Origin: Azolla caroliniana
Lineage: Eukaryota > Plantae > Polypodiophyta
Reading direction: 5' to 3'
Length of the DNA: 64,000 bases
NCBI GenBank assembly: GCA_043228905.1
Contig: JBHGNT010000006.1
Span: 10,912,001 to 10,976,000 of the forward strand
Both the position numbers and the translations under genes were made by a program. Under the pieces are notes generated by a model. It was not told the origin of the DNA, made no database searches, and worked only from the letters and a program-made list of their open reading frames with translations. Below, in pieces: positions 17,912 through 64,000 of the stretch (its first letter is position 1; each line of letters starts with the position of its first letter).

Positions 17912-18806
17912 ACATCTGCACCATATTAGAGTCAAGAAAATTATGAGTGCTACCACAGTCAAATAGTATAGTTATACTTTGATTGTGGATAGTCCCATCA
18001 GTTTTAAGTAAATCGTGTGGTCCAAGAATAATTTTTTGTAATGCAACGTTTCTTAAAGGCCTTGATCCTCTTCCCAGCTACCGGCACCGCTATCTGCGTT
18101 CCATCGAGCTCTGCGAGATGGTAAGTGCCGTTGTCGTTTGCGCTCGTTACGGCGTAGGGCCCGAACCACCTCCTCGCGAACTTACACATTGCCTTGTGCT
18201 GGTTGTCGAGGCTGTTGTCGTAAACCAGCACCCAGTCGCCTTCCTCGATCTTTTTGGTCGTAGCCAGTGAGTTCGGTCAAACCGGCCCTTGCTCTTACCA
18301 CGTGCAGCCTTGTCCTTGCATGATCCACGTCCTCTGATCTCCGCTCCAGCTGTTGAATCCGTGCCGCCAATAGCTCCTCCCGGCTCATCTCGTCCTTCCA
18401 ATCCACCGCGGCCGAGGAGGAGATCGTTCGCTCCATTGGCATGATCGGCTTCTACCCGTACATCAGCTTTGTTGGCATGAACCCAGTTACCGAACTATGC
18501 GTAGTTCGGTTCGCCCACAATGCGTAAGGTAGGAGCCACGACCAATTCCCGACTCGCCCTTCACATGCCCGTACTAACGCCTTCACGATCGGCCTGTGCC
18601 CGCACTCTATCTTCCTCTTAGCCTCTAGATTGTATGCCGTTCTGAGGGAGAGCTTGACCCCTAACCGGGCGAATAACTCTTCGGCTTCCTGTGCATCCAG
18701 CTCTCCCTGGTCAGCCATGATCTTTCCCACACACCCGTACCGGCATACCACTTCCTCGATCAGAAACCGGCACACAACCACAATCGTCTTATTCTGCAGT
18801 GCGCGG

Positions 18807-21800
18807 TGTCGTGAAGATCCGTCACTACGCGCGGATCGTGAGGCGGAACCGCCGGGGTTCTGGACCGGAAGGACTTGAAGTTGGCGCAAGCTTTAGCGAG
18901 AAAGTACTTAAGCTAGATTGAAAGAGAGAGAGAGAGAGAGAGCTTGAGATAGAAATCTTGATTTTAGATTTTAAGAAACAAGTTACACGATCAATTCGAT
19001 AACGAATTCTCTTCTTCTTAATTTCATAACAAAAAAAAGCCTAACCCTTCTTCTTTTTCATCCCTTCTTTTATAGATGCTCTCATGCATATGATGCATGT
19101 GAGGGTACAAGACATGCATAAAATGCATGTTTGCCATTTGGCGCTCATGTATTACATGCGGTGCATGATAACCATGTCACTCATTTTAGCTCTCATGTAT
19201 GAGAATTTACATGTAAAAGTATAATGATAGAAATATAAATTTAACTAAATCTCATGGCTTAGTGGTAAGCCAATAGACTCCTAACTTGGAGGTGCAAGGT
19301 TCAAATCCTTACTTGCCCTCGTATATGTATATATGTTTATATATTTATTTATCTAGTCGCCGGACGCCGGTTCGCTGGATGCCGTCGTCTGACTAGCGCC
19401 GGATATCGATGCGCCGCCGGATGCCGTCGGTTACCGGTTGCCGCCGGATGCCGGTTCCGCCGGATCACTGGGTACCGGTGTGCCACCATCGCTTTGCGGG
19501 CTGCCGCTAGATCACCGACTCCATCGCCGATCCGGTTTTGGTTGGCCGAAAACCTTTATGAGTAGCTAGGCCACCTCCACTCTTAATTCAATTTACCTTG
19601 AACTCTCTATGCTCCACACATAGACACAAAGATAATAGCTTTTGCTTTACCTTATATATGATGAGAGCCGTATTTGTCGTGCCTATGTGGGATATCTCAC
19701 AGTTTTCTCTTTTCTTTTCACAAACTTTATACCCTCATATCTTGACATTTAGTTGTCCGTTTCTCGTGTAATAAAGTGCATTCGAAAGCTCTTGAAGACC
19801 TCCATCATTTTGTACTTAGATATTAAACTTATTTAAAATGTTATCTTCACTATTATTATTTTATGTGATTCATACTCGATTTTGTACGTTTTATGTGATT
19901 TTCACACTATTGCCGAAAATCTTCACGACATCCACCCCCACCAAACCGCACGTCCTTTGATACGTGCCAAGAAGAGAGAAAGTGAGATTTCGGCTACGGT
20001 GATCAATCAGATTCCTCCATGTCTTCATTTAAATCCGTCCTATTATGTTCATCGTCGAGGTGATCGAGGTCAGGATCCTTGTCTTGTCTTTTCTTGAAAA
20101 TCTTTAGTCTTTTTCCCACAATGGGTACGACCAACCTTGATCCGTCTAGCTCCGCAAGGTGGTATGTGGCATTATCGTTGGCACTTGTCACCACATACGG
20201 CCCGAACTATCTTCTTGCGAACTTTCTTGTTGTATTTTGTTGATTGTCAAGGTTGTTGTCATAAACCAAAACCCAATCTCCTTCTTCAATATTCTTGGGA
20301 CGAAGTCGATGCGTGCTGTCGAACCGAACTTTGTTCTTTACTCGGGCTGCCTCCATCATCTTTTACGCTTTTTCTAGATCTTCAGGTCTTCTTTCAAGTT
20401 GCCTTATCCGCGCCGCTAATAACTCTTCTCGGCTCATCTCATTCTCCCACGGTATCGCTACCCATGAGGCGATCGTCCTTTCGATGGGCATTACCGGCTT
20501 TTGTCCATACATAAGCTCCGTCGGCATATACCCTGTCACCGAGCTGTTTGTCGTTCTGTCAGCCCACAAGGCATAGGGTAATGGTCGTGGCTAATTCCCG
20601 ACTCGACCGTTGCATACCCGTACGATGGCTTTGACGATAGGTCCATGCCCTCGCTCGATCTTCCCATTTGCTTCTGGATTGTAGGCAGTCATGAGGGAGA
20701 GCTTCACGCCTAGTCGTTCGAAGAGCTCCGTCGCTTCGTGCGCATCCAACTCCCCTCGGTCAGCCACTATCTTCCCCACACATCTGTATCGGCAAACAAC
20801 CTCTTCAAGTAGAAATTTGCAAACGGCTAAAGTCATCTTATTTGTCAAGGCTCGTCCTTCCACTTGATTTGTCAAGTCTTCCCTTGCCAACACTAAGTAC
20901 TTCATTTGTCCCACTCCCATTGGCATCGAGACTAGATCCACCATCCATTTGAAGTGTGTGGTGAGTGGGTATGTCAGCTGTAATTCATCACGATGATGTA
21001 TATTTGAATATATTTGGCAAGTTTCACATGTGGACACGAAATGGAGTACATCTTTGTACATGCTTGGCCACTAGTACTTCTCCTTCAACTTTTCGAACGT
21101 CGCCCATGTTCCTCTATGACCTGCCCAAGCACTCTCGTGGAATTCGGTCATCAGCGTCTCTTGTTCTTCTTTCTTCACCACCACTCGACGTGGTATTCCT
21201 GTCCTTCTTTTTGGATGTCGCCAAAGGAATCCTCCCTTCTTCCGGATTCGTAGGGCCTCCTCCTTTGTCAACGAAGCATCTGTCGTCAATGTTCTTAGGC
21301 ATCTACTGATGAGTAACCACTCTCATTCGTACTCATTCTCGTTGAAGGCGTAGAGGGTTTGCGTGTCCTGGTCTTCCGCCGATAATCGAGCCATCTTGAA
21401 GAAGTCGAGGGCGACATCTTCATCTTCCGAAACCATGTCGGTTCCATTTTCGAATCTTGCCCTCGATAGCATGTCAGCCATGGCGTTCTTCTTCCCTGCA
21501 ATGTGACGGATCTCTGGGTTTAAAGACTTGATGTAGGCGATCCACCTTAGCATAGCAAGATCTGGGGTTGCACATCCCGAGACCATTTCGAGAATTAGGA
21601 GACAATCTGTCTCTATTATCACTTCCGACCCGATCAGGTAATCTTTGTCCGTCTTCACTGCCGACACAATACCCCAAAGTTCCCGCTTGACTCGGGCATA
21701 TATTTGTTGTCGTTCGCTGAGAATCTTTGCTCCGAACCGGACGGCATATCGCGCATTATCTTCTCCTTCTTGATTGATGACCCACCCGATTCCGGTTGGG

Positions 21801-24800
21801 CTTGTATCGACGGTCACGTAAATCTGTTTCCCTTCGGCATAGTCGCCTTCCTTAGTGCCGGAGCTTCAAGAAGTAGTTTCTTCAATCTTCGCATCGCATT
21901 TGTGTGCTCGTCTCACCATTCGAACTTCATTCTTTTCTTTAGGAGTCCATATAAGGGTTCAACGACATGAGCATAGTGCGGAATCCAGATATCATAAAAT
22001 GCGCATGCTCCAAGGAACCTTCTAACCTCCGTTTGATTTCCGCATTCTTCTTTCATGTCTTGGATTGCGTTCACTTTGTATGGCGAAGGCTTCCGGCCGT
22101 ATGCCCCACATAAGTGACCTACCACCAAGATCTCCGGTTGCCTGAATGCGGATTTTTCTCCCGAAAATGTCAAATTCGCATCTTCGAGCCTTTGAAGCAC
22201 CTTCTCGCAATCTTTCATATGATCCGCAACGAACTTTCTACAACCTTCCTTATCTTTCAATTCATCTTTCTCCTCATCCGAACATCCTTTTATCGGAATA
22301 TCATCCAAGAATGGCATCGTGATGTCCGGGATGCAATCCTTCAAGACTTTATTCATGGCATTTACCATATGAGCCACCGAGTTCGTTGCGCCTTGGGGTA
22401 AGGTACACATCCGCACAAGCCCGATCGGAGTCCTCATGGTTGTAATGTCCCGACTGTCGATCGTCAATTGGAATTGGTCATATCCGAAGTAGAGATCGCC
22501 AATGGAGTAGATGGACCGGCCCCGCAAATGCTTCGGCAAATTCGTCCATGTTTGGACCGATTCTGGCATTTCAAATTGTCACATTGTTGACGGGTTGAAG
22601 ATCTTGGATGAATCGCAATGATCCATTCTTCTTCGGCACCGTGAACCACCTATTGGAATAAGGAGCATTCGACGGTTCTAGAAGTCCCATACTCACCTTC
22701 TCCTTTAAGAGCTCGATCAGCTTCGGAAGGTGTGCTCTCGGAACCGGCATCGGTTTCAAATTCCAAGGCACATGAGGCACCGTGAAGATCACCATCGGCT
22801 CTATAACCTTTGGGTCGGCACATCCGATTTCTCATGGGAAGAATGCGAAAGCCTTCCCATGTCTCTCAAGCATATCACGAAACATTCGCTCCTCTTTAGG
22901 GAGAAGGAAATCCTCCTTTCCAACTCATAGCTTCCCCTTTGTCTCTTCGGTGAAGACATGACCTATCGTCTTCGGATCTCTTAAGGTTGGATCATTAGCG
23001 ACTTCCTTCATCTTTTGCCAGCTATCTTCCGGTAGCGGAACCACAACTGGCTTGATCTTCTAATCCACCGTTTTATATTTCGTGTTGATGTCAGCTTCCT
23101 TCATCGAGATGCCATGACGGTATTCATCGATGATAGTGTACATGTTGACGGAGTTAACCGAAATCACGCGTTGGTCGTGAAGATAGCTCAAGTCCACGAC
23201 GTCCTCGATTTTGCCGATGGTGTCGTTAAATGAGGCTTCTTCCATAATATGAGTCACGAACTCTCCTTCTTCTATTATGTTTTCTTCTTTCAGCATCTTC
23301 TCGAATTCTTGTATCCGAAGCTTGTCCTTCTTGTCGGGTAGTACTAGTTTACGTGCGCCACTAGGTGTGACACATGTTGCTTCTCCTCGCAATCCAAACA
23401 CTCTTCTTACTTGTGGGGTCTTGTGATTGCTCGGACTATTTGTGCCCCATGCTTCAATAGTCCGCTCTAAAAATCTGAGGATTCGCCTCCAAGACTATCT
23501 CGATTCCTTTCATGATTGTCTCACACCGTTAGGAATTGGACTGATCTTTGGTTGTCAAGACTCTTTATTCATGCGAAGGCTGCTCCATTATCGAACACTT
23601 TGGTCTCCATCCGAGATGATGTGATATAAGGTTGCCCTAGGATGACAGGATGTGACACCGATTCTTGTACGAAGAAGTGTTGATCCATCTCCACATCGCC
23701 GATCGTGACTTTGACATTGGGACAAGCTCCGTAGACTTTGTTTCCGCGTGAATCTTCCATCCGTGGTTTGTATTGATTGGCCATCTTCCTTTTTTGTAGA
23801 AGTTGGTTGACATGAGGTTGATCTCCGAGCCATGGTCGATCAAAGCTACCACGGTCTCTTTCTTCTCCCCGATCTTCACCGGCGTCTCCGTTGTCGTTCG
23901 TGCCCAATGAGGTCGAGTATAGTGGCTGTCCATCATATCTTCATCGACTTCGTCTCTTGCCATCATTATGGCATTCGTTTTTGCTTTTTGCGGCTTCTCT
24001 TCTTCCTCGTCTGATTGTTGTCTTTTTCTCTTTACAAGGACCACGATCGTGTCATGGAACTCCTTCGTAATGCCAAGCAATTCCCTCAAGGACAAAGTTC
24101 TTCGAGAATCTTCTTTAGGTCCGTCGTCTGCTCTATGTTCGAGCTTAGCTTATAGGTAGGCATAGTCCTTGTCCTCCGAGTAGGGTCTTCAACACTAACC
24201 TTCACGGGCCGAACCGTTTCTTCAACTCGTATGCTCGGCTCCCCTTTTCAGCTTGATTCTCGTTCCTCCGTTTGTAAAGGTCGACTCGTCTTCGTATCGT
24301 CCTTCTTTTTCGCGTTCCTTGTTTCATGTCTTTTTGATGGGCCTTGCTCTTCTATTCTTTTTCTCTTTTCTTCGACAAACACCTCATGGTTGTCACACAT
24401 CACCTCCGCGAGTATGGTGTTGTCGTCCACCGGATCCAACCATCCGGTTATACTTTGTACACTTTCCCGACGCAACATAGTGCATCGCATCCACATGAGT
24501 CACATCAGCATCCTCCATAGATTTCTTCATTCCCCCTCTTCCGAAATTCACCCGTAGGGGTCTTCTAGTCTCCCTCGAGCAGATCATGTTGTCATCTATG
24601 TACACGATATTTTGTCGGATCGCCTCTGGAAGGCTCGCACAATCCCTTCTCATGTGGTCCATGCTATCGCACCACACACATCTAAAGGGTTCTTTTCCTT
24701 TGGGCCCTCGACGATTCATGTTGGCTAGCATGACCTTCTCGAACTTCTTCGTCAGTTCTTCGATGACATCATCACCAATATTCTTTTCTTCCACGTCACT

Positions 24801-26642
24801 TTGTTTCGGAGGCTCAACTACTTTCGGCGGTCTTGCTTTCTCCGTAACAGTCGATCCCACCAAGTCGGTGTCATCAACCCACTGACGACGCTTGTTGAGC
24901 CTATTGCATGCTCACTTTATCGCAACCCAGTCCGTCACAAGCCCGTTCGCTTGGGTATCATCTTTGAGAAGAGTCCCCAACTCCCGTCTATCCTTGATGT
25001 CCACAGCCTTCGGGAAGTACAAAGTCTTGTCCTCTTCAAGTAGCACTTGATCTGTGTTGGGGAGATGGCCAAACATCTGGTCAAATTCATCGTACATCCT
25101 CGAGGCGCTCATCTTCTTATTCTTCTTCTCTCTCCACTTCATCAGGGCATGTCGAGTCATCCTTGTTGAGTCTTCAGTCACGAACTCCGCTAATATCATT
25201 TTCTCGAACTCAGACCATGTTGTCTTACCTTCTTGAAGTTCGATGACGCGTCTTTGAATGTTGTTGGCGACAACTCTCTTGAAGCTTGCGATTTGACGTG
25301 CTTCGAACACGTCCCTCTGATTCATTTCCCTTTTATATGCATAAAGGAACTTCGTAACGTTCCTTCCATCGAATTGGCCCTCAAGCTCTACGACACGATC
25401 AACAGCCTTTTCCACGCTCGCATCGTTGTCCCGAGATCTCATCATTTGCTCGACGATTAGCATCATCCTTTCGAGCTCTCCCGCTTGGTTGCTTGAGGAC
25501 GCCATCTCCAAGTATTAATCTCGGCTTGATCCTTCCTCACGTCGGGTTCACCACTTAATTATGTCGTGAAGATCCGTCACTACGTGCAGATCGTGAGGTG
25601 GAACCGTCGGGGTTCTGGACCGGAAGGACTTGAAGTTGGCGCAAGCTTTAGCGAGAAAGTACTTAAGCTAGATTGAAAGAGAGAGAGAGAGCTTGAGATA
25701 GAACTCTTGATTTTAGATTTTAAGAAACAAGTTACACGATCAATTCGATAACGAATTCTCTTCTTCTTAATTTCATAACCAAAAAAAGCCTAACCCTTCT
25801 TCTTTTTCATCCCTTCTTTTATAGATGCTCTCATGCATATGATGCATGTGAGGGTACAAGACATGCATAAAATGCATGTTTGCCATTTAACGCTCATGTA
25901 TTACATGCGGTGCATGATAACCATGTCACTCATTTTAGCTCTCATGTATGAGAATTTACATGTAAAAGTACCGCTTAGGTTTAAGCTTTCCGGGAATAGT
26001 ATTCGACAATGATAGAAATATAATTTTAACTAAATGTCATGGCTTAGTGGTAAGCCAATAGACTCCTAACTTGGAGGTGCAAGGTTCAAATCCTTACTTG
26101 CCCTCGTATATGTATATATGTTTATATATTTATTTATCTAGTCGCCGGACGCCAGTTTATTGGATGCCGTCGCCGGTTACCGGTGGCCGGTGTGCCACCA
26201 TCGCTTTGCGGGCTGCGGCCAGATGACCGGCTCCTTGGCCGGTCCGGTTTTGGTTGGCCAAAAACCTTTACGAGTAGCTAGGCCACCTCCACTCTTAGTT
26301 CAACTTACCTTGAACTCTCTATGCTCCACACATAGACACAAAGATAATAGCTTTTGCTCTACCTTATATATGATGAGAGCCGTATTTGTCGTGCCTATGT
26401 GGGATATCTCACAGTTTTCTCTTTTGCTTTCACAAACTTTATACCCTCATATCTTGACATTTAGTTGTCCGTTTCTCGTGTAATAAAGTGCATTCGAAAG
26501 CTCTTGAAGACCTCCATCATTTTGTACTTAGATATTAAACTTATTTAAAATGTTATCTTCACTATTATTATTTTATGTGATTCATACTCGATTTTGTACG
26601 TTTTATGTGATTTTCACACTATTGCCGAAAATCTTCACGATA
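18807..26642 (-). mobile_element. Trp-lineage Gypsy copy A: full length but degenerate; LTRs 18807-19930 and 25562-26642
   Basis: 4-bp TSD gcgg, PBS 25537-25553, PPT 19931-19943. gag, PR (IDHGSEIN), RT (FLDD), RH and INT are present with stops and frameshifts. Confidence 0.95.
19255..19316 (+). ncRNA. tRNA-like Pol III A/B-box cassette inside the LTR (also at 26040-26101, 55352-55409, 62200-62261)
   Basis: A box tggcttagtgg and B box ggttcaaatcc 43 nt apart. D-like stem ggctt/aagcc, anticodon-like stem ctcc/ggag, T-like stem aagg/cctt. No acceptor stem. Confidence 0.7.
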
Positions 26643-29549: not shown

Positions 29550-29591
<42 letters not shown>

Positions 29592-37528: not shown

Positions 37529-38192
37529 TGTCGCGAAGATGCGCGTGCGAGCGTGCTTCGCTTGAGCGGGACCACCGGGGTCTTGGACCAAGGAGGATGT
37601 CCGTCAAGGTATTGAGAAGAGGACGATGTGAATGTAAGATTGGAAGAAGACCTATTACACTTGAGAAGATTGAAGATTGTACACTTTCAGAAGTAGATAA
37701 ATAATTACAAGATAGATGCGAAGAAGAAGAAATAGAAGCTTATATTATTGATGGTGATGATGATGGTCATATCATATTGAGCCCCCACCTTACACAAGCC
37801 GTACTAGGGGTTTTATAGGTTTGTCCATGCACAAAACCATGGGCTTGGAGCCATGGTTTTTGTGCACACAGTTTTGCTTTGTGACATGCAGGAAACCATG
37901 GGCTTAAAACCGTGGTTTTGTGTACACAGTTTTGTTCGTTTGTTTCCTACGGAATACTGAATATGAGAAAGAAATATAGAACATCTAAAGCACTTAGTAG
38001 TAGCTTTAGTGGTAAGGTAATTGCCTCTTACCTTAGAGGTGCAAGGTTCAAATCCTACTTGCAACCCTCTACATGCACTCAATGCCATTGTGACCTAGGT
38101 TTATTTATTTTCATTTTTACAAGTATTCGTGAAATGTGTGTGGATCCTCAATTTTTGAGTTTTTCTCGCACTAGACATGCCACATCATGACA
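37529..38192 (-). mobile_element. Solo LTR resembling the Trp lineage (tgtcgcgaag...catgaca)
   Basis: 4-bp TSD acgc; removing the insert restores the host codons PHYAHVA. Terminus resembles the lineage LTRs. Confidence 0.85.
38001..38062 (+). ncRNA. tRNA-like Pol III cassette in the solo LTR
   Basis: tagctttagtgg ... cctct/agagg stem ... ggttcaaatcc. Confidence 0.65.
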
Positions 38193-47257: not shown

Positions 47258-47771
47258 GCTACTACACACACAAAACTACCTAGGACAACTTGAATGGGTT
47301 CTGATTCTTCTACAATATTCCCGGAAGCAATGGGACGACCATCAATGACTACTACAAATGCGGGACAAGGAAGTTTTCTTAAGGATATCTGAGAAGCTTG
47401 GGCAAAATTTCGATCCATGACACAGGAATTAGCTCCGGAATCTAAAAGTGTTAGGACAGGTACTGGGGCAATACTTTTAGTACTAACAATGACTTGGGCT
47501 AGGAACACATTGCTAACTTGCTTGGAAGGAATGGAACCACTAATGGGTTGTACAGATCTTGGGCTATTGTCCAACCAAATGGCTCCTATTTTAGCTGGAC
47601 TCAATCGTTTAACTCTTCATCTAATTGACTAAGGATTTCAAATTTGTTTGAGATACTTCGACTATTAGTATTATTAATACTATCAAACACTCTATTAGTA
47701 CTATTAATAATATCAGACACTCCTAAGGGAAGAATTGACTCGGGTTTAGTACAGGCTACAATTTGATTTAC

Positions 47772-48758: not shown

Positions 48759-49223
48759 AGTATAGGGAAAAGGGTAGGCTTGAGACCAAATTGGTCCAAA
48801 TTGTCAGGAATAGTACTAAAGTAGAGATGGAATTAGTACTAAAGAAGAGGATGGGACTGCGTAAGACTCCCAAGAGAGAGAGAAAGAGAGAAGAGAAAAG
48901 AGAGATAGTGAGGATGAGAGAGAGAGATGATGATAACAGCCAATATATTATGTGAAGGATAAGTACAAAATGGCTAAGAGGCTTAAGACTGACGTTGAAC
49001 CAATTTGGTTCAACATAATGCCTAGTGCCTTCTTTTATAGTGTTCTCAGGAGTAATCCTGAAGCTTCTAGAATGTTCCAGAGAAATCTAGAATATACATT
49101 AATTTCCTATAATAAAACTTAAATGAAAATAATATCTTACGTATGATAATAGATGGTATAATGGTCAAGAGCTCGACCCATATAACATAAGGTTATGGGT
49201 TTGAGTTTTGCCATATCATGACA

Positions 49224-51974
49224 CGTTCGACGTCTTGTGACAAGGGAGCATTCGGGCGTGCCCATGCACCTCTCCTCATAAAGACGTACGGGCATTTGTG
49301 TTTGTGTTATCGTCCCCTTGTATGTTCATCTTGCGTGCTCATCTTTGCTTGTAGCCGTTTGATCACTTGGCTCATGCGGTGATCGGGAAGTGATCTTGTC
49401 GTAAAGCAAACCTCGGGTCTTCTCTATCCCTTCAGTACTCCCTAGTTCAAGACCCCCGTGGTCCCGCCCAAGTAACACACACGCTCTAAACTTCGCGACA
49501 CCGTTGGCCAGCACCTTCGTTTCCATCTGAGCCACCGTAATGTAAGGTTCGCTAAGAATCACCAGGTGGGGGGATGCCTCCTACACGAAGAAATGTTGGT
49601 CTATTTCGACGTCACCGCATTCACCCTGATGTTCAAGCACACACCATGAAGCTCTTTGGTAGCGCGGGTTGTTGCACGTATCTTCCAACCATGCGTCATG
49701 TTGATCGGCCACTTCTCCATTTTATAGAAATACATCGACATCAGATTGATTTCCGATCCATGGTCGATCAAAGCCACCACCGACTCCTTAACATTCCCGA
49801 TCCGGACCGGGGTCTCGGTCATCACTCTAGCCCAGTGTGGGTTCATATAATGGCTATCCGGAAACTCCTCTTTCATCGCCACCTCTTTGAGGTGGGCCGC
49901 CTTCACTTCGACCGGCTTCTCCGGCTTGAGCTCTGACGAGAGTCACTTCCTTTTTACCAAGTCCACGATGGAATCGTGGAATTCCTTCTTTGTGATTCCC
50001 AGCACCTCTCGTAACGAGAGCTCCACCTTCCTACCGAATTTGTCATCCTCTCTATTTCCAAGCTTAACTGGAAGCTCGGAATCTTCGCCTTCCCCTGTGG
50101 GCTGGGTAGGCCTCCATCATTCCTTTTTGACCCACTCCGAGTCTCATACCAGTTCAAGGATCGGCCCCTCCGACCATTCCAGCTCGGTTGTCCTCGACCA
50201 GAACCTCATAGTTATTGCATGCGGCTTCTACAAAGCCAGTTTTCTCTTCAACCAGACCATTCCATCTGGTGCCTTCTCGGACCTGCCTCTCCACGCGGTT
50301 TGCCTCTTCCTTCCGTAGCCTCACCCCCGATGTGCCTTCTAGTACAAACAACCAGAATCCGGTATCATTTCCGAATCCAATGCCCTTCTCTCTGCCGACA
50401 CCGAGTAGTGGATGGCCTCAACATTCCAGGCAGCGGGTTCTTCCATTATCCTCTTGATGTCGCCTCATCCGGTATTCACCTTGAGAGGCCTTCACGTGTC
50501 TCACGTGTGTATCCACCCGTTCCAAAGATACACAATATTGTTCTTGAGTGCTTCGGCAAAATCGGCGCACTCTCTTTGGATGTGGCCAACGGCATCGCAC
50601 CAAATGCATTGTTGGTCGACCAGAGGCCTCCGGTCACATGACTTTCTCCCGTCGTCTCTTTGAGCTTGCGTGATCTGGAGATCACGCACCATCTTCGTCC
50701 GCTCCTCCAGAGTTGTGCCCCCGGATGGGCCCCTGACCATGTCGGTCAGACTCGTGCCCGACTCAAGCCACCTTCATGTCTCTTCAATCCGTGTTAGAAT
50801 CGGTTCCTCCGGCTTCTTCCCGGCACCCGGGCCGGTCGCCAATGACCCCGCATCGTTCCATTCTCACCATTTGTCGAAACGGCTACAAACCCTTTTTACC
50901 ACAGCCCAATCGGTCGTGAGCCCTTCATCCGTCGCCAACAGGAGACCCACCTTTTCTTGATCGATCAGATCGACCGATTTGATAAACAATAGGACCTTGA
51001 TTGTGTCGCGCACAATCTGGTTCAACGCCGAGAGCCGCGCAAATCGTCTTTCGAACTCCTGGAGGACCGTCGATGTGTTCCTCCCCTTTTTAGGGATCTC
51101 GACCCACTCCATCAGCTCCCTCTTCAATAATCGGAGCAAGTTATTGAAACTGTATCTTTCAAGGAGCAGCTCCTTGAACTCCAGCCAACTTCAGTAGTTG
51201 GCCTGCATCTCGAGCACCTCTGCGTGGATGCTCGGCATAACTACCCGTGGAAACGCAGACAACCGTCTATCGTCCGGAACATCTCTCATCAGCATCTCAG
51301 CCTTGAAGGCCTCTAGGTAGTTCATGACGTCCTTTCCATTGAATCAGCCCATCGTGTCGACTACCATTTCCACGGCTCTATCGAGGCCTCTAGTGCTCTC
51401 ACGAGCGTTAGCCAAGCGGTCGACATCCACCGCCATTGCTTCGGCGAGTTTGCTTCCCCTCATTTTTGGACTCCTCTGCCACCCTTCTGTCGGGTTCACC
51501 AAAGATGTCGCGGTATTCCATGTGGATGTGTCGAAACGGAGGGGACTATGGGGGTCTCAGACCAAGGTCTTCTAGATATATTCGTCGGATCAGTTAACGG
51601 TCGCGTACCCAGTCCGGGTCGGTTCCCCAATGCCAGACAATGAGTGCACAAGATCATAGATGTGTTTTGTTCTGGACCGGTCCTTGGATAACGACTCGGG
51701 ACTCGGATAAACGCGGGCAACAAACTGAGACAAAATGGAGATGCGTACACAACACACAAAGAGAAATCAAATGCAATGAAACGAAATAGATTATTCAAAG
51801 AGGAATATGACCGGACCTGGCCGGTATCAGAGCTACGCGCTCTCGGAACACGGACACACATAGAAACTCAAGACGATGAACCTCTGGTCGGGAGCTCACG
51901 GGCTTCCTGTGCGAGTAGAGGCTTCACCTTCTTCCTAGGGTCGGTACAGAGCACGAGAGAGAGAGAGAGAGAGA
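49224..51974 (-). mobile_element. Trp-lineage Gypsy copy C: partial 5' LTR 51507-51974, gag and PR followed by non-pol sequence
   Basis: PBS remnant gtcgggttcacca at ~51489-51501 and protease IDHGSEIN. Similarity to the family stops after METKVLANG. Confidence 0.82.
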
Positions 51975-53850: not shown

Positions 53851-55961
53851 TGTTACAATGCATCATTAAACATATTTGAAACGAATAGTGTGTGGAAGCA
53901 ATAGGAAAACCGAACAACAGAAGACGCAGGTTTAATGGAAAGCTTAGGTTTGCATTGTACGCACAGGAGAGACAGAGAGAGAGTAAACACACAAAACTTA
54001 ATTCCAAAATAATACTCAATCTGTACATAGGATGTGCTCAATGAGAACTTTTATACAAGCCCTGACAATGGGCTGACATAAGTACTGACAGTACTTGACT
54101 GCTCATAAATGAGCCTCGACACTTACTCCCAAAACTATTCCTTGCGAGGAATATCTTTCTAACGGCCTTTCGGTCTACGCACCGATACGGCCTTCCTACG
54201 CACCGGTCTTCGTACCGGCTTTACGCATCGAATTACGCACAAATGTTGAGCTTGTTTCTCAACACTCCCCCTCAAGCTCAACTTGAGGTTCCGCCTGCTC
54301 TACCGGATCTACGCTCCGGCTTCTCCTGGCTACACGCCTCGCTCACGCTCCTCGGCCTGTTCGACTCCGCGCGCTTCGACCCTTCTGGTCGGCTTGTCTC
54401 CTCCCATGGCCCTTCATAGCTCCCTTGTTGTCGCGGTGTTGGTGCTTCTCCTGCTGCCTTCTTTTCCGCTTGGCCCTCGGTTGATTTAGTGTATCTGAAT
54501 CAAACATCCGAACCGACTTGGCTACCTCCGATCAGTTTTCGCTCTTGTCCGAGTTGGCTGTCTCCAACTCGTCTTCGGTCTTCTCGCCTTTGACGGCGTC
54601 ATCTCCGCCATGCCTGGTTGGCTCCGGCATTTTCTTTCAGCTACTCCCCTTACGTCCGCTTTCAGACTCTTCCGCGGATCTGCTCTCGGCTTCTTCAGTC
54701 GAGCCACGGTCTTTTCCGCTCCTTTCCTGCTCCCTTCGTGGTCATCGGGGACGTTTCTCCCCCTCAAGTTCGGCACGTCGAGGTGACGCAACCCAAGCGC
54801 ACCCGAGAATTGCCGTAACTTGTCCAGACCAAGAGGCTTGGTGAAGATGTCGGCGGTCTGCCGATTCGTCAGAACATACTGAAGTTCGACTTCACCAGAA
54901 AGGACACGCTCACGGACAAAATGGTAATGCACCTCAATATGCTTGGTCCGTTGTCGTGAAGATCCGTCACTACGCGCGGATCATGAGGCGGAACCGCCGG
55001 GGTTCTGGACCAGAAGGATTTAGAGTCGATACAAGCTTTGGCGAGAAAGTACTTAACATAGATTGGGAAAGAGAGAAGTTGAGATTACACGATCAATTTG
55101 ATAACGAATTTCTTCCTCTTAATTTTCATAAAAAAAACCGTGTTTTTCTCCTCCCCCTTCCCTCTTTTATAGATGCTCTCATGCATATGATGCATGTGAG
55201 GGTACAAGACATGCATAAATTGCATGTTTGCCATTTGGCGCTTAAGTATTACATGTGGTGCATGCTAACCATGTCACTCATTTTAGCTCTCATGGATGAG
55301 AATTTACATGTAAAAGTACAATGATAGAAATATAATTTCAACTAAATACCATGGCTTAATGGTAAGCCATTTGACTCCTAACTTGGAGGTGCAAGGTTCG
55401 AATCCATACCGGTGCCGCCGCCGGATACCGACGCCGACGTTGGATACCGGTGCCGCATGCCGCCGCCGGATTGTGGTTGGATGCCGTCGGATCACCGGCT
55501 CCATCGTCGGACCGGTTTTGGTTGGCCAAAACCCTTTTCGAGTAGCTAGCCACCTCCACTCTAAGTTCAACTTACCTTGAACTCTCTATGCTCCACACAT
55601 AGACACAAAGATAATATCTTTTGCTCCACCTTATATATGATGAGAGCCGTATTTGTCGTGCCTATGTGGGATATCTCACAATTTTCTCTTTTCTTTTCAC
55701 AAACTTTATACCCTCATATCTTGACATTTAGTTGTCTATTTCTCGTGTAATAAAGTGCATTCGAAACCTCCATCATTTTGTACTTAGATATTAAAAATGT
55801 TATCTTCACAATTATTGTATTACGTGATTCATACTCGATTTTGTACGTTTTATGGGATTTTCACACTATTGCCGAAAATCTTCACGACATCCACCCCCAC
55901 CAAACCGCACGTCCTCCGGTACGTGCCAAGAAGAGAAGAAGTGAGATTTCGGCTACGATGA

Positions 55962-58900
55962 TCAATTAGATTCCTCCATGTCTTCATTTTCATCCGGCCT
56001 ATTATGTTCATCGTCGAGGTAATCGAGGTCAGGATCCTTCTCTTGTCTTTTCTTGAAAAGCTTTACTCTTTTCCTCGCAATGGGTACGGCCAACCTTGAT
56101 CCGTCTAGTTCCGCAAGGTGGTATGTGGCATTATCGTTGGCACTTGTCACCACATATGGCCCGAACCATCTTCTTGCGAACTTCCTTGTTGTACTATGTT
56201 GATTGTCAAGGGTGCTGTCGTAAACCAAAACCCAATCCCCTTCTTCAATCTTCTTGGGACGAAGTCGATGCGTGTTGTCGAACCAAACTTTGTTCTTTAC
56301 TCGGGCTGCCTTCATCATCTTTCGCACTTTTTCTAAATCTTCAGGTCTTCTTTCAAGTTGCCTTATCTGCGCCGCTAATAACTCTTCTCTGCTCATCTCG
56401 TTCTCCCACGGTATCGCTACCCATGAGGCGATCGTCCTTTCGATGGGCATAATCGGCTTTTGTCCATACATAAGCTCCGTCGGCATATACCCTGTCACCG
56501 AGCTATGTGTCGTTCTATCGGCCCACAAGGCATAGGGTAATAGTCGTGGCCAATTCCCGACTCGACCGTTGCATGCCCGTACGATGGCTTTAACGATAGG
56601 TCCATGCCCTCGCTCGATCTTCCCATTTGCTTCCGGATTGTAGGCAGTCGTGAGGGAGAGCTTCACGCCTAGTCTTTCGAAGAGCTCCGTCGCTTCGTGC
56701 GCATCCAACTCCCCTCGGTCGGCCACTATCTTCCCTACACATCCATATCGGCAAACAACATCTTCAAGTAAAAATTTACAAACGGCTGAAGTCGTCTTAT
56801 TTGTCAAGGCTCGTCCTTCCACTTGATTTGTCAAGTCTTCCCTTGCGAGCGCTAAGTACTTCATTTGTCCCACTCCCATTGGCATCGAGACCAGATCCAC
56901 CATCCATTTGAAGTGAATGGTGAGTGGGTATGTCAACTTTAACTCATCACGATGACGTATATTTGAATATACTTGGCAACTTTCGCATGTGGACACGAAA
57001 TGGAGTACATCTTTGTACATGCTTGGCCACCAGTACTTCTCCTTCAACTTTTCGAACGTCGCCCATTTTCCTCTATGACCTGCCCAAGCACTCTCGTGGA
57101 ATTCGGTCATCAGCATCTCTTGCTCTTCTTTCCTTACCACCACTCGACGTGGTATTCCTGTCCTTCTTTTTGGATGTCGCCAAAGGAATCCTCCCTTCAA
57201 GAAGTATCGGTAAGCTTTCTTTCGGATTCGTAGGGCCTCCTCCTTTGTCAACGAATCATCTGTCGTCAATGTTCTTAGGAATCTACCGATGAGTAACCAT
57301 TCTCCTTCGTACTCGTTCTCGTTGAAGGCGTGGAGGGTTTGCGTGTCCTGGTCTTCCGCCGACAATCGAGCCATCTTGAAGAAGTCGAGGGCGACATCTT
57401 CATCTTCCGAAACCATGTTACTTCTATTTGAAAATCTTGCCCTCGACAGCATGTCAGCCATGGCGTTCTTCTTCCCTGCGATGTGACGGATCTCTGGGTT
57501 AAAAGAATGGATGTAGGCGATCCACCTTAGCATAGCAAGATCTGGGGTCGCACATCCCGAGACCATTCCGAGAATTGGGAGACAATCTGTCTCTATTATC
57601 ACTTCTGACCCGATCAGGTAATCTTTGTCCGTCTTCACTGCCGACACAATACCCCAAAGTTCCCGCTTGACTTGGGCATATCTTTGTTGCCGTTCGCTGA
57701 GAACCTTTGCTCCGAACCGGATGGCATATCGCGCATTATCTTCACCTTCTTGATTGATGACCCACCCGATTCCGGTTGGGCTCGTATCTACAGTCACGTA
57801 AATTGGTTTCCCTTCGGCATAGTCGGCCTTCCTTAGTGCCGGAGCTTCAAGAAGCAGTTTCTTTAATCTTCGCATCGCCTCTGTGTTCTCGTCTCGCCAT
57901 TCGAACTTTATTCTTTTCTTTAGTAGTCCATATAACGGTTCGGCAACATGAGCGTAGTGAGGAATCCATATATGATAAAACGTGCACGCTCCAAGGAACC
58001 TTTGAACCTCCGTTTGGTTTTCGCATTCTTCTTTCATGTCTTGGATTGCGTTCACTTTGGATGGTAAGGGCTTCCGGCCGTATGCTCCACACAAGTGACC
58101 TACCACCAAGATCTCCGGTTGCCCGAATGCGGATTTTTCTCCCGAAAATGTCAAATTCGCATCTTCGAGCCTTTGAAGCACCTTCTCGCAATCTTTCATA
58201 TGATCCGCAACGAACTTTCTACAACCTTCCTTATCTTTCGATTCATCTTTCTCCTCATCTGAACATCCTTTTATCGGAATATCATCCAAGAATGGCATCG
58301 TGATGTCCGGAATGCAATCCTTCAAGACTTTATTCATGGCATTCACCATATGAGCCACCGAGTTCGTTGCCCCTTGGGGTAAGGTACACATCCGCACAAG
58401 CCCGATCGGAGTCCTCATGGTTGTAATGTCCCGACTATCGATCGCCAACTGGAATTGGTCATATCCGGAGTAGAGATCGCCAATGGAGTAGATGGACCGG
58501 CCCGCAAACGCTTCGGCAAATTCGTCCACGCTCGGACCGATTCCGGCATTTCGAATTGTCACCTTGTTGACGGGTTGAAGATCTTGAATGAATCGCAATG
58601 ATCCATTCTTCTTCGGCACCGTGAACCACCTATTGGAATAAGGAGCATTCGACGGTTCTAGAATTCCCATACTCAGCTTCTCCTTTAAGAGCTCGATCAG
58701 CTTCGGAAGGTGTGCTCTCGGAACCGGTATCGGTTTCAAATTCCAAGGCACATGAGGCACCATGAAGATCACCATTGGCTCTATAACCTTTGGGTCGGCG
58801 CATCCGATTTCTTGTGGGAAGAATGCGAAAGCCTTCCCATGTCTCTCAAGCATATCGCGAAACATTCGCTCCTCTTCAGGGAGAAGGAAATCCTCCTTTC

Positions 58901-59456
58901 CAACTCGTAGCTTCCCCTTCGTCTCTTTGATGAAGTCATGACCTATCTTCTTTGGATCTCTTAAGCTTGGATCGTTAGCGACTTCCTTCATCTTTTGCCA
59001 GCTATCTTCCGGTAGCGGAACCGCAACTAGCTTGATCTTCTTATCCACCGTTTTATATTTCGTGTTGATGTCAGCTTCCTTCATCGAGATGCCACGACGG
59101 TATTCATCGATGATAGCGTACATGTTGACGGAGTTAACCGAAATCACGCGTTGGTTGTGAAGATAGCTCAAGTCCACGACGTCCTCGATTTCGCCGATGG
59201 TGTCGTTAAATGAGGCTTCTTCCATAATATGAGTCACGAACTCCCCTTCTTCTATTATGTTTTCTTCTTTCAGCATCTTCTCGAATTCTTGTATCCGGTG
59301 CTTGTGCTTCTTGTCGGGTAGTACTAGTTTACATGCGCCACTAGGTGTGACACATGTTGCTTCTCCTTGCAATCCACGCACTCTTCTTTCTTGTGGGGTC
59401 TTGTGATTGCTCGGACTATTTGTGCCCCATGCTTCAATAGTCCGCTCTAAAAATCC
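55962..59456 (-). CDS. Pol (RT-RNase H-integrase), uninterrupted frame entered by a predicted -1 frameshift
   Basis: The 1139-aa ORF extends upstream without a stop to GGATTTT at 59456. Motifs: FLDD, TVDTS, HHCC (H-H-C-C), D,D,E core, GPY module. No chromodomain. Confidence 0.93.
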   Translation of the reverse strand, partial: GFLERTIEAWGTNSPSNHKTPQERRVRGLQGEATCVTPSGACKLVLPDKKHKHRIQEFEKMLKEENIIEEGEFVTHIMEEASFNDTIGEIEDVVDLSYLHNQRVISVNSVNMYAIIDEYRRGISMKEADINTKYKTVDKKIKLVAVPLPEDSWQKMKEVANDPSLRDPKKIGHDFIKETKGKLRVGKEDFLLPEEERMFRDMLERHGKAFAFFPQEIGCADPKVIEPMVIFMVPHVPWNLKPIPVPRAHLPKLIELLKEKLSMGILEPSNAPYSNRWFTVPKKNGSLRFIQDLQPVNKVTIRNAGIGPSVDEFAEAFAGRSIYSIGDLYSGYDQFQLAIDSRDITTMRTPIGLVRMCTLPQGATNSVAHMVNAMNKVLKDCIPDITMPFLDDIPIKGCSDEEKDESKDKEGCRKFVADHMKDCEKVLQRLEDANLTFSGEKSAFGQPEILVVGHLCGAYGRKPLPSKVNAIQDMKEECENQTEVQRFLGACTFYHIWIPHYAHVAEPLYGLLKKRIKFEWRDENTEAMRRLKKLLLEAPALRKADYAEGKPIYVTVDTSPTGIGWVINQEGEDNARYAIRFGAKVLSERQQRYAQVKRELWGIVSAVKTDKDYLIGSEVIIETDCLPILGMVSGCATPDLAMLRWIAYIHSFNPEIRHIAGKKNAMADMLSRARFSNRSNMVSEDEDVALDFFKMARLSAEDQDTQTLHAFNENEYEGEWLLIGRFLRTLTTDDSLTKEEALRIRKKAYRYFLKGGFLWRHPKRRTGIPRRVVVRKEEQEMLMTEFHESAWAGHRGKWATFEKLKEKYWWPSMYKDVLHFVSTCESCQVYSNIRHRDELKLTYPLTIHFKWMVDLVSMPMGVGQMKYLALAREDLTNQVEGRALTNKTTSAVCKFLLEDVVCRYGCVGKIVADRGELDAHEATELFERLGVKLSLTTAYNPEANGKIERGHGPIVKAIVRACNGRVGNWPRLLPYALWADRTTHSSVTGYMPTELMYGQKPIMPIERTIASWVAIPWENEMSREELLAAQIRQLERRPEDLEKVRKMMKAARVKNKVWFDNTHRLRPKKIEEGDWVLVYDSTLDNQHSTTRKFARRWFGPYVVTSANDNATYHLAELDGSRLAVPIARKRVKLFKKRQEKDPDLDYLDDEHNRPDENEDMEESN
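59392..59456 (-). promoter_or_regulatory. Predicted -1 programmed ribosomal frameshift signal (G GAT TTT plus H-type pseudoknot)
   Basis: Slippery heptamer, 5-nt spacer, stem cggactatt/aatagtccg; loop tgggg is complementary to downstream cccca. Conserved in copies A, D and E-. Confidence 0.8.
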
Positions 59457-61739
59457 GAGGATTCGCCTCCGAGACTATCTCGATTCCTTTCATGATTGGC
59501 TCGCACTGTTAGGAATTGGACCGATCTTTGGTTGTCAAGACTCTTTATTCGTGCGAAGGCTGCTCCATTATCGAACACTTTGGTCTCCATCCGAGATGAT
59601 GTGATATAAGGTTACCCTAGGATGACAGGATGCGACGCCGATTCTTGTATGAAGAAGTGTTGATCCATCTCCACATCCCCGATCGTGACTTTGACATTGG
59701 GACAAGCTCCGTACAAGTCCTCCGTAGACTTTGTTGCCGCGCGAATCTTCCATCCATGGTTTGTATTGATTGGCCATCTTCCCTTTTTGTAGAAGTCGTT
59801 TGACATGAGGTTGATCTCCGAGCCGTGGTCGATCAAGGCTACGACGGTCTCTTTCTTCTCCCCGATCTTTACCGGCGTCTCCGTTGTCGCTCGTGCCCAA
59901 TGAGGTCGAGTGTAGTGGCTGTCCACCATATCTTCATCGATTTCGTCTCTTGCCATCGTTATGGCATTCGTTTTTGCTTTCTGCGGCTTCTCTTCTTCCT
60001 CGTCCGATTGTTGTCTCTTTCTCTTTACAAGGTCCACGATCATGTCATGGAACTCCTTCTTCGTAATGCCAAGCAATTCCCTCAAGGACAAAGTTACGTG
60101 GCTATCAAGAACTCGTTCTTCGAGAATCTTCTTTAGGTTCGTCGTCTGCTCTACGTCCGACCTTAGCTTATAGGTAGGTATGGTCCTTGTCCTCCGAGCG
60201 GGGTCTTCGACACCAACCTTCACGGGCTGAACCGTTTCTTCAACTCGTATGCTCGGCTCCCCTTTTCGGCTTGATTCTCGTTCCTCCGTTTGTAAAGGTC
60301 GACTCGTCTCCGCATCGTCCTTCTTTTTCGCGTTCCTTGTTTCATGTCTTTTTGATGGGCCTTGCTCTTCTATTCTCTTTCTCTTTTCTTCGACGAACAC
60401 CTCGTGGTTGTCGCACATCACCTCTGCGAGTATGGTGTTGTCGTCCACCGGATCCGACCACCCGGTTATGCTTTGCACGTTTCGGTCCGCAAGCTCTACC
60501 TCGTTCGATGTGACTTTTCCCTTCTTCTCATATTCGAGAACGGAAGTCCAAAACTTTGCTCCCGCTCTAGCAGCTTCAGTCTTGTCTTTCCCGACTCTTA
60601 TTCCGGCTGACGCAACATAGTGCATCGCATCCACATGAGTCGCATCGGCATCCTCCATAGATCTCTTCATTCCTCCTCTTCCGAAATTCACCGGCCGACG
60701 CAGCATAGTGCATCGCATCCACATGAGTCGCATCGGCATCCTCCATAGATCTCTTCATTCCTCCTCTTCCGAAATTCACCCATAGGGGTCTTCTAGTCTC
60801 GCTTGAGCAGATCATGTTGTCCTCTATGTATACGATATTTTGTCGAATCGCCTCTCGAAGGCTCGTACAATCCCTTCTCATGTGGTCCATGCTATCGCAC
60901 CACACGCATCTAAAGGGTTCTTTTCCTTTAGGGCCCCGACGATTCATGTCGGCTAGAGTGACCTTCTCGAACTTCTTCGCTAGCTCTTCAATGATGTCAT
61001 CATCAATCTTCTTTTCTTCCACGTTACTTTGTCTTGGCGGCTCATCTACTTTCAGCGGTCTTGCTTTCTCCGTGGTAGTCGGTCCCGTCAAGTCGGTGTC
61101 ATCAACCCATTGGCGACGCTTGTCGAACCTATTGCATGCCCGCTTCACCGCGATCCAGTCCGCTACGAGCCCATTTGCTTGGGTATCATCTTCGAGAAGA
61201 GTCCCCAACTCCCGTCTATCCTTTATGTCCACGGCCTTCAAGAAGTACAAAGTCTTGTCCTCTTCAAGCAATACTTGGTCCGTATTGGGGAGACGACTAA
61301 ACATCTGGTCGAATTCGTCGTACACCCTCGAGACGCTCATCTTCTTATTCTTCTTCTCTATCCACTTCATCAGGGCATGTCGAGTCATCCTCGTTGAGTC
61401 TTCAGTCACGAACTCCACTAGTATCGTTTTCTCGAACTCGGACCATGTTGTCTTTCCTTCTTGAAGCTCGATGATGCGTCTTTGGATGTTGTTGGCGACA
61501 ACTCTCTTGAAGCTTGCGATTTGACGTGCCTCGGACACGTCCCTTTGATTCATCTCCCTCTTATATGCATCAAGGAACTTCGTAACGTTCCTTCCATCGA
61601 ATTGGCCCTCGAGCTCTACGACACGATCGACAACCTTCTCCACGCTCGCGTCGTTGTCCCGAGATCTCATCATTTGCTCGACGATTAGCATCATCCTTTC
61701 GAGCTCTCCTGCTTGGTTGCTTGAGGACGCCATCTCCAA
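59447..61739 (-). pseudogene. Gag-protease ORF1 of copy F, broken by an 88-bp duplication (60603-60778) and a CAA-to-TAA stop (59612-59614)
   Basis: ORFs 60576-61739 and 59612-60739 join if the duplication is removed. Copy A has CAA at the stop position. The frame ends ...GESSDF*. Confidence 0.88.
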
Positions 61740-61774
61740 GTATTAATCTCGACTTGATCCTTCCTACCGCCTCT

Positions 61775-61792
61775 TTCACGTCGGGTTCACCA
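61775..61792 (-). promoter_or_regulatory. Primer-binding site complementary to the tRNA-Trp 3' end
   Basis: tggtgaacccgacgtgaa is complementary to plant tRNA-Trp ...UUCACGUCGGGUUCA-CCA (tRNA sequence recalled, not searched). Confidence 0.85.
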
Positions 61793-64000
61793 CTTAATTA
61801 TGTCGTGAAGATCCGTCACTACGCGCGGATCGTGAGGCGGAACCGCCGGGGTTCTGGACCAGAAGGATTTAGAGTCGATACAAGCTTTGGCGAGAAAGTA
61901 CTTAACATAGATTGGGAAAGAGAGAAGTTGAGATTACACGATCAATTTGATAACGAATTTCTTCCTCTTAATTTTCATAAAAAAACCGTGTTTTTCTCCT
62001 CCCCCTTCCCTCTTTTATAGATGCTCTCATGCATATGATGCATGTGAGGGTACAAGACATGCATAAATTGCATGTTTGCCATTTGGCGCTTAAGTATTAC
62101 ATGTGGTGCATGCTAACCATGTCACTCATTTTAGCTCTCATGGATGAGAATTTACATGTAAAAGTACAATGATAGAAATATAATTTCAACTAAATATCAT
62201 GGCTTAATGGTAAGCCATTTGACTCCTAACTTGGAGGTGCAAGGTTCGAATCCATACTTGCCCTCCTTGTATATGTACATATTTTTATATATTTATTTTA
62301 TCTAGTCGCCGGTTCGCCGGATGCCGTCGCCGGATGCCGACGCCGACGCCGGATACCGGTGCCGCATGCCGCCGCCGGATTGCGGTTGGATGTCGTCGGA
62401 TCACCGGCTCCATCGCCGGACCGGTTTTGGTTGGCCAAAACCCTTTTCGAGTAGCTAGCCACCTCCACTCTAAGTTCAACTTACCTTGAACTCTCTATGC
62501 TCCACACATAGACACAAAGATAATATCTTTTGCTCCACCTTATATATGATGAGAGCCGTATTTGTCGTGCCTATGTGGGATATCTCACAATTTTCTCTTT
62601 TCTTTTCACAAACTTTATACCCTCATATCTTGACATTTAGTTGTCTATTTCTCGTGTAATAAAGTGCATTCGAAACCTCCATCATTTTGTACTTAGATAT
62701 TAAAAATGTTATCTTCACAATTATTGTATTACGTGATTCATACTCGATTTTGTACGTTTTATGGGATTTTCACACTATTGCCGAAAATCTTCACGACACC
62801 GTGCGTGGAAGACGGGGTTCTTCGCGAGGTGGATGCTGCTAAGGTTGTCGTAGTAGATCGTCGTCGGATCGGACACCTCCACCTGCAAATCCTTAAGTAG
62901 CCGCTTCAACCATATGGCTTCGCATGTCGCAATGGCCGCTCCTCAGTACTCAGCTTCAGTGCTCGACAGTGCAACTGTCGGCTGCTTCTTGCTACTCCAC
63001 GCTATTGCGGCACTCCCAAGAGAGAACGTGTATCCGGACGTGGATCGGCGATCTGCGACATTGCCGGCCCAGTCGGCATCGGTGTAGCCGAACAACTGCG
63101 GGGCCATATTGGTCCGATATAGCAGTCCCCGGTCATTAGTGCTGCTTATGTACCGCAGTACGTGTTGCGCACACTGAAGGTGCTCCTCGGTAGGTCGCGC
63201 CATAAATTGACTGATCACCCCGATCGGGTAACTAAGATCGGGTCGGGTGATTGTCAAGTAGATAAGGCTTCCGACAATTTGTCGGAACCTTGTCGGATCG
63301 CAAACCTTGCCAGAATTGGGGCGAAGCTTCACAGTTCTATCCAGAGGAGTCGAGACGGACTTACAGTCTGCCATCCCGAATTTGAAGAGCATATTCAGGG
63401 TGTAATGACGTTGGCTGATCAGTATGCCTTTAGGGGTGTGGATCACTTCGATCCCGAGGAAGTAATGAAGGTCCCCTAGATCCTTCACGTCGAATGATGC
63501 TGCAAGCTAGAGCTTCACGTGGTTGAGTTCACCTAGGTCAGTGCCGATGATGACCAAGTCATCAACATAGAGTAAAATACTGACCGGCCCAAGTCGACCT
63601 TTCCGAATGAACAACGAGGAGTCCGATTTTGACGTCGCAAAGCCCATCCGACGCAGCCGATGCGTGATCTTTGTATTCCAGGCACGCGGGGCTTGCTTCA
63701 GTTCGTAAAGGGACTTCTTCAATCGGCACACTGCCGACGTGTTCGTTCCGGAGTGAAATCCGAGGGGTCCTCAAGCTCACCTTGCAGGAACGCATTCTTT
63801 ACATCCATTTGATGTAAGTGCCACCCCTTGGCCGCGGCTACCATGAGAAAAACACGGACAGTCGTCATCTTCGCGACCGGCGCAAATGTCTCATCGTAGT
63901 CGATGCCGTGTTTCTGCGCATAGCCTTTTGCCACTAACCGGGCCTTGTATCGGTTGACCGAGCCGTCGGTGTTGTACTTGACCTTGTGCACCCACCTACA

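What the first reader, a model, noticed from the sequence alone, without database searches (positions are those of the whole stretch)
18803..62802. Every readable integration site of the lineage is NCGN: CpG-centred target preference
Seen: TSDs gcgg (18803/26643), acgc (37525/38193) and ccgt (54948/62799), plus single-sided flanks gcgt (34705) and ccgt (42300). All 5 have CG at positions 2-3. The other families here have 5-bp TSDs without this central pattern (gtcca, ggacg, acatc, aatcc). Inference: the integrase cuts symmetrically around a CpG, possibly a methylated one. That would steer insertions into old TEs without a chromodomain and explain the nesting.
Basis: partly seen in the sequence, partly recalled or inferred. 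Interest (0 to 1): 0.85.

Follow-up and report, generated by a model that had tools for sequence, protein, structure and literature searches.

The report
Moss retrotransposon that inserts at CpG
These jumping genes sit on four-base sites with CG in the middle, a habit already published for the moss Phygy lineage to which they likely belong; whether their integrase also needs the CG to be methylated is untested.

Summary
All 8 flanks read as stated. Outside data agree. In a flank-blind search, 14 of 19 metagenome flanks had central CG, 4 had CA or TG (decayed CG) and 1 neither. In five public runs the majority flank letters read ACG-. The elements match Phygy: Ty3/gypsy, about 7.8 kb, 4-bp duplication, tRNA-Trp-type primer site (identity recalled), no chromodomain. 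Neumann et al. 2019 (PMC6317226) list Phygy as '4 bp (100%) (NCGN)' for 186 elements. No tree with named Phygy could be made. Likely mechanism: the integrase bends the target at its central step and picks CG by sequence. Methylation dependence is neither shown nor excluded. The nesting argument is weak: families with 5-bp duplications nest here too. The scan noted NCGN before in a fungal genome (e1-10582392; not checked by me).

The parts
54952..62798 (-). Youngest full-length Phygy-type element (E6), 7847 bp; LTRs 54952-55889 and 61801-62798, 99.0% identical; TSD CCGT/CCGT; inserted in a copia-type pol
55965..59474 (-). pol frame P0001, 1170 aa: RT, RNase H, integrase (H2C2 finger, D860-D919-E954, GPY/F barrel); no chromodomain
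59615..60754 (-). gag-region frame with DUF4100 (PF13352)
61776..61792 (-). primer-binding site TGGTGAACCCGACGTGA; read as tRNA-Trp from recall, not checked against a tRNA set
56709..56711 (-). Glu922 of P0001, aligned with PFV integrase Ala188, a target-contact position; E in 84 and D in 17 of 106 relatives
56181..56219 (-). Conserved loop 1086-1098 (L-x-x-Q-H-S-x-x-R-K) between the first two strands of the C-terminal barrel; candidate reader of the central CG (inferred)
18807..26642 (-). Full-length element E1, 7836 bp; LTRs 97.0% identical; TSD GCGG/GCGG; inserted in the integrase gene of an older lineage member
37529..38192 (-). Solo LTR of the lineage; TSD ACGC/ACGC; interrupts the RT region of E4
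34705..34708 (+). GCGT flank at the start of E4 (34709, + strand), inside the 5' LTR of E3; the empty copy lies at about 27704-27707
42300..42303 (+). CCGT flank outside the 5' LTR (41677-42299) of E5; host DNA 42304-43525 unidentified
49501..49504 (+).
15501..15504 (+).

Best explanation
These are Ty3/gypsy LTR retrotransposons, likely of the moss Phygy lineage, that leave four-base duplications centred on CG, likely because their integrase itself picks that sequence when it bends the target DNA. Shown: the 4-bp duplications, the central CG, T avoided at the first and A at the last position, a DDE integrase without a chromodomain. Inferred from the PFV intasome: two active sites cut the two strands 4 bp apart, which forces a sharp kink at the middle pyrimidine-purine step. 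Inferred: base contacts, perhaps from the conserved loop 1086-1098 of the C-terminal barrel, narrow the choice from any such step to CG. Inferred: the choice is near 100% at insertion, and the CA/TG exceptions arise later by deamination of methylated C. Methylation is likely not required; CG-rich old elements collect somewhat more insertions simply because they hold more CG.
For: 7 of 7 window sites; 14 of 19 outside flanks CG, 4 CA/TG, 1 CT against a background of 0.043. Contigs across the LTR end share the letters CGT or CCGT with the reference flank in 58 of 106 (X2), 62 of 89 (X5), 62 of 97 (X6) and 12 of 17 (X7) of the listed flank-side contigs, and the non-matching group still has majority letters ACGG, ACGG, ACGG, ACGC. 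First TSD position over 29 half-sites: G 11, A 11, C 6, T 1; last: T 12, G 10, C 5, A 2, the same edge rule as 4-bp retroviruses (PMC4422553). Central TA was seen in 0 of 19 outside flanks and 0 of 7 window sites, so bendability alone does not explain it. Transitions between E1 and E6 fall on 98 of 580 CG, 35 of 230 CHG and 60 of 1394 CHH cytosines, enough to account for 4 of 19 decayed sites. Model pLDDT 85.6; best fold matches are PFV and Ty3 intasomes. Precedents: ZAM integrase binds and nicks CGCGCg in vitro (PMC2527525, abstract); Ginger1 has CCGG/CCGT duplications (PMC2836005). Phygy: 186 elements, 4 bp, NCGN.
Against: No named Phygy sequence was available, so lineage membership rests on diagnostic features and not on a tree. 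No biochemical or methylome data were seen, so 'methylation not required' is an inference from precedents. All identified hosts of the window sites are repeats, which a methylation-reading integrase would also give. The role of loop 1086-1098 is a guess: the sequence alignment with PFV integrase covers only residues 22-251 of 391. One outside flank (TCTG, L001) fits neither CG nor its decay. Outside flanks are one-sided, come from collapsed assemblies (the two ends in L021 and in L028 do not match each other) and may stem from one campaign. One search lists only the six best groups per run.
Confidence: 0.72

Rival explanations
1. The integrase prefers or needs methylated CpG, so it reads a silencing mark directly and is steered into old transposons without a chromodomain.
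For: All 6 identified or partly identified hosts of the 7 window sites are repeats; the elements show CG and CHG methylation scars; 9 of 16 outside flanks resemble repeats of this window. Cytosine methylation created strong target preferences for alpha-retroviral integration in vitro (review PMC11054761 citing Kitamura 1992, passage). Phygy is among lineages enriched in liverwort centromeric regions (PMC12885004, passage).
Against: The window is almost wholly repeats, so repeat hosts carry no information. 4 of 7 sites in lineage DNA is what its 67% share of CpGs predicts. Non-CpG families nest as well. No methyl-binding or other extra domain in P0001. ZAM targets CGCG in Drosophila, which has almost no CpG methylation (recalled). 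Outside flanks range from CpG-depleted to CpG-rich (o/e 0.46-1.38).
Confidence: 0.2
2. A host protein that binds CpG or methyl-CpG tethers the integration complex, as TFIIIB does for Ty3, and the CG at the cut is a by-product.
For: Ty3, whose intasome is among the best fold matches, is shown bound to a TFIIIB-occupied tRNA gene (entry title). A distant relative, P0110, carries a PHD finger after its integrase, so chromatin readers do occur in the wider group.
Against: A tether would place insertions near its site, not exactly across it; the CG is at positions 2-3 in 7 of 7 window sites. P0001 has only about 27 residues after the barrel.
Confidence: 0.06
3. The pattern is chance, a product of GC-rich hosts, or an artefact of where LTR ends were drawn.
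For: The first five sites were picked after the fact, and three of the seven are the same 4-mer, CCGT.
Against: P at most 7.5e-8 at the highest local CpG density; flank-blind search 11 of 16 at 0.043, P 3e-12; boundaries fixed by paired LTRs and by empty paralogous sites; published for 186 elements.
Confidence: 0.01

Closest known systems
Phygy, non-chromovirus Ty3/gypsy clade of Physcomitrium (Physcomitrella) patens (Neumann et al. 2019, PMC6317226; passages, section 9 and Additional file 5 read)
   Same: 4-bp TSD with NCGN, size within 7656-9968 bp (7847 and 7836 here), tRNA-Trp-type primer site, no extra domain, coding region filling the interior.
   Different: No defining difference found. 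Host species not determined; named relatives are in Riccia and the fern Adiantum nelumboides. Added here: V-C-G-B edge rule and CA/TG decay of the duplications. My searches found no study of the mechanism.
Ginger1 DNA transposons (Bao, Kapitonov, Jurka 2010, PMC2836005; passages read)
   Same: Gypsy-type integrase with H2C2, DDE and GPY/F; 4-bp TSD with central CG (CCGG 75%, CCGT/ACGG 24%).
   Different: DNA transposons with inverted repeats in animals; narrower motif. CCGG itself was seen in 0 of 7 window sites and 0 of 19 outside flanks (one CCAA may be a decayed CCGG).
ZAM of Drosophila melanogaster (Faye et al. 2008, PMC2527525; abstract read)
   Same: LTR element whose integrase binds and nicks a CG-centred target by itself.
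   Different: Six-base consensus CGCGCg; retrovirus-like insect element; not shown to be a close relative.
Prototype foamy virus intasome (Serrao et al. 2015, PMC4422553; passages and section 13 read)
   Same: 4-bp stagger, kink at a central pyrimidine-purine step, T avoided at the first and A at the last TSD position; best fold match of the model.
   Different: PFV shows only a weak preference for any YR step; here CG alone is chosen, and the Ala188 position is acidic (E or D in 101 of 106).

Membership tests
Phygy (REXdb non-chromovirus clade) | Clusters with P. patens Phygy elements in RT/RH/INT trees | not testable with these tools
   REXdb sequence files too large to read; no named P. patens protein among the listed hits
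Phygy (REXdb non-chromovirus clade) | Ty3/gypsy order gag-RT-RH-INT between LTRs | tested here: met
Phygy (REXdb non-chromovirus clade) | 4-bp TSD, NCGN | tested here: met
   3 of 3 two-sided sites and 4 of 4 one-sided flanks
Phygy (REXdb non-chromovirus clade) | Length 7656-9968 bp | tested here: met
   7847 and 7836 bp
Phygy (REXdb non-chromovirus clade) | Primer site for tRNA-Trp (81% of members) | tested here: inconclusive
   A TGGTGAACCCGAC site follows 5 of 5 readable 5' LTRs; its match to tRNA-Trp is recalled, not looked up
Phygy (REXdb non-chromovirus clade) | No chromodomain, no added RNase H | tested here: met
   Pfam scan of P0001 gives RT, one RNase H region and integrase only
TatI (4-bp TSD, tRNA-Trp, in the same table) | Additional archaeal-type RNase H domain | tested here: not met
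   none in P0001
Selgy | 4432-6724 bp, tRNA-Ala primer site | tested here: not met
   7.8 kb
Ginger1 | DNA transposon with terminal inverted repeats and no RT | tested here: not met
   LTRs and RT present

The most novel reading that the evidence does not exclude
The Phygy integrase reads 5-methyl-CpG in its target cleft, through the conserved C-terminal loop and the unusual acidic residue at the Ala188 position. It would be a retrotransposon that aims at silenced DNA by touching the methyl mark itself, without a chromodomain, and the habit might be shared with fungal relatives.
Probability: 0.2. Interest if true: 0.7.

Novelty: already known. Interest (0 to 1): 0.22.

Why it matters
The motif itself is a published lineage marker, so this window adds further examples and little surprise. 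What stays open is why: Phygy was called the one exception to sequence-blind insertion among plant LTR retrotransposons (PMC6317226), and my searches found no study of its mechanism. A young copy with an open pol frame (P0001) and two candidate contact sites make the test easy. If methylation mattered, it would be a new way for a transposon to avoid genes, and a CpG-directed integrase could be useful for mapping or delivery.

Tried and rejected
No host genome was held, so the genome-wide logo was replaced. Viral contigs gave 0 loci. Two protein searches and one cluster look-up gave no named P. patens relative, so no membership tree was built. A preference for G two bases outside the TSD (15 of 29 half-sites, raw P 0.001) was dropped: it is one of 24 comparisons, and none of the 4 majority strings shows G there. 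CpG observed/expected in the 16 outside flanks (0.46-1.38) did not separate methylated from unmethylated targets, and there was no genome background. Pairing CCGT at 42300 with CCGT at 49501 as one duplication was rejected: both are right-hand flanks. Pairing GCGT at 34705 with CCGT at 42300 was rejected: the host LTR's continuation occurs only at 27708. PMC7466625 (passages) has no target-site data and does not say which RLG family is Phygy. PMC6911290 (passages) confirms 4-bp TSDs for Phygy, finds no longer palindrome (285 sites, P 0.94) and reports Phygy nested in Tcn1 in P. patens. Additional files 1 and 3 of PMC6317226 (per-element TSDs, sequences) could not be read and bear on membership and on exact NCGN counts. 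Run shares under 0.2 were not used. No complex prediction was sent.
Full report
Observation. Self-comparison and translated searches resolve the region as a stack of one Ty3/gypsy lineage: E1 (18807-26642) in an older member E2, E3 (27587-34708), E4 (from 34709, + strand), a solo LTR (37529-38192) in E4, E5 (39034-42299), E7 (49505 to about 51975) and E6 (54952-62798) in a copia-type pol. An alignment of ten LTR 3' ends shows two more ends of the lineage, at 49500 and 15500, followed by CCGT and ACGT. The count is 7 of 7 readable sites; ends lost to deletion or later insertion were left out and are listed in the observation check. With CpG at 0.054 in the window and at most 0.096 in any kilobase, P is 1.3e-9 to 7.5e-8. 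The four 5-bp duplications of other families are confirmed.

Independent test. No host genome was held. A pattern for the LTR end that contains no flank letters hit 6 places in the window and none in 100 shuffles, and 28 loci in metagenome contigs. Twelve abut the primer site; of the 16 genomic flanks, 11 have central CG against 0.043 in the neighbouring DNA. Three opposite LTR ends in the same loci add 3 CG: 14 of 19. Four of the five exceptions (CCAA, CTGC, GCAG, GCAT) have CA or TG, the products of methyl-C deamination; TCTG is unexplained. These flanks are one-sided, come from collapsed assemblies and may be one campaign. Contigs of public runs laid on the E6 LTR gave 94, 87, 98 and 73 loose ends at the terminus, unrelated to one another (agreement 0.35-0.38), whose majority letters end in ACGT in 4 of 4 runs. 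Laid on the junction with its real flank, 58 of 106, 62 of 89, 62 of 97 and 12 of 17 listed flank-side contigs run on through CGT or CCGT, and the group that stops at the terminus has majority letters ACGG or ACGC (only six groups per run are shown, and primer-side contigs fall in the last group).

What it is. P0001 has RT, RNase H and integrase and no chromodomain; the gag region carries DUF4100. Named relatives are from Riccia and Adiantum; a chromodomain-bearing gypsy element also lies in the window, so a bryophyte host, likely a moss, is inferred. Neumann et al. [quoted passage not shown] Their table gives 186 elements, 4 bp (100%) (NCGN), 7656-9968 bp, tRNA-Trp 81%, no extra domain. E6 and E1 are 7847 and 7836 bp and have a TGGTGAACCCGACGTGA primer site, which I recall as tRNA-Trp. 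TatI and Selgy fail on domain content and size. The defining tree could not be made, because the reference sequences were too large to read and no named P. patens protein was listed. I put membership at about 0.9.

How it likely works. The integrase model (pLDDT 85.6) matches PFV and Ty3 intasomes best. In PFV a 4-bp stagger needs about 55 degrees of roll at the central step, which favours pyrimidine-purine steps, and T at the first and A at the last position are avoided (PMC4422553). The same edge rule holds here: T first in 1 and A last in 2 of 29 half-sites. TA, also a flexible step, was never central, so base reading must be added to bending. Two candidates come from 106 relatives: Glu922, aligned with PFV Ala188 and acidic in 101 of 106, and the loop L-x-x-Q-H-S-x-x-R-K between the first two strands of the C-terminal barrel. 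That PFV Arg329 lies in the matching loop is recalled, not aligned here. ZAM integrase binds and nicks CGCGCg by itself (PMC2527525, abstract) and Ginger1 makes CCGG/CCGT duplications (PMC2836005), so CG reading by gypsy-type integrases has precedents.

Methylation and nesting. The elements are likely methylated: between E1 and E6, transitions hit 98 of 580 CG, 35 of 230 CHG and 60 of 1394 CHH cytosines (contexts assigned roughly). That rate can account for 4 decayed sites in 19, but it says nothing about the state of the target before insertion. Methylation did create preferred sites for alpha-retroviral integration in vitro (PMC11054761, passage), so the idea is plausible; I give it 0.2. The nesting needs no special steering: lineage-rich DNA is 55% of the window with 67% of its CpGs and hosts 4 of 7 sites, and families with 5-bp non-CpG duplications nest too (AATCC solo LTR in E3, GGACG solo LTR in the GTCCA copia element).

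Literature and earlier notes. Searches for Phygy with target site duplication, for NCGN, for Phygy with methylation and for Phygy alone (9, 11, 7 and 18 papers listed) found the motif only in PMC6317226 and no mechanistic study among the listings; most were seen as listings only, and subscription journals are not covered.

Verdict. Real, strong and already known as the Phygy target motif. Interest 0.22; the open and testable part is whether the integrase senses methylation.

Noticed in passing
P0110: A distant relative (42% over the integrase) with DUF4100 gag carries a PHD finger at residues 1747-1789 after its integrase: a possible chromatin reader in place of a chromodomain.
   Followed up: partly
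window 34709-42299: E4 (+) and E5 (-) are 80-89% alike where they align and meet tail to tail at about 39034, forming a 7.6-kb inverted arrangement; E4 also has an internal deletion from its LTR into gag.
   Followed up: partly
window 29208-29860 and about 36586-37229: Two copies (70% alike) of a solo-LTR-like repeat of another family, both inside Phygy-type pol genes; the first has an AATCC duplication, the second lacks its TG start and is flanked by an 84-bp duplication of the host RT (36502-36585, 37230-37313).
   Followed up: partly
window 43525-49223: Chromodomain-bearing gypsy element (Tcn1-like by domains only) with LTRs 81% alike and unmatched flanks (GGCAT, CGTTC), so likely a recombinant of two copies.
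   Followed up: partly
window 42304-43525 and 15505-16950: GC-rich stretches with open frames of 150-250 aa but no Pfam match and no relative elsewhere in the window.
   Followed up: partly
window 60603-60780: An 88-bp tandem duplication in E6 gag, absent from E1, shifts the frame; E6 may be defective in gag although pol is open.
   Followed up: no
window 14869-14915: The ACATC-flanked element's left LTR breaks off after about 40 bp and runs into a Phygy-type LTR that lacks its first 45 bp or so: a deletion or recombination joint between two families.
   Followed up: no
window about 52900-53900 (-): AT-rich stretch between E7 and the copia LTR at about 53964 that looks like a decayed non-LTR RT by eye; not scanned.
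   Followed up: no
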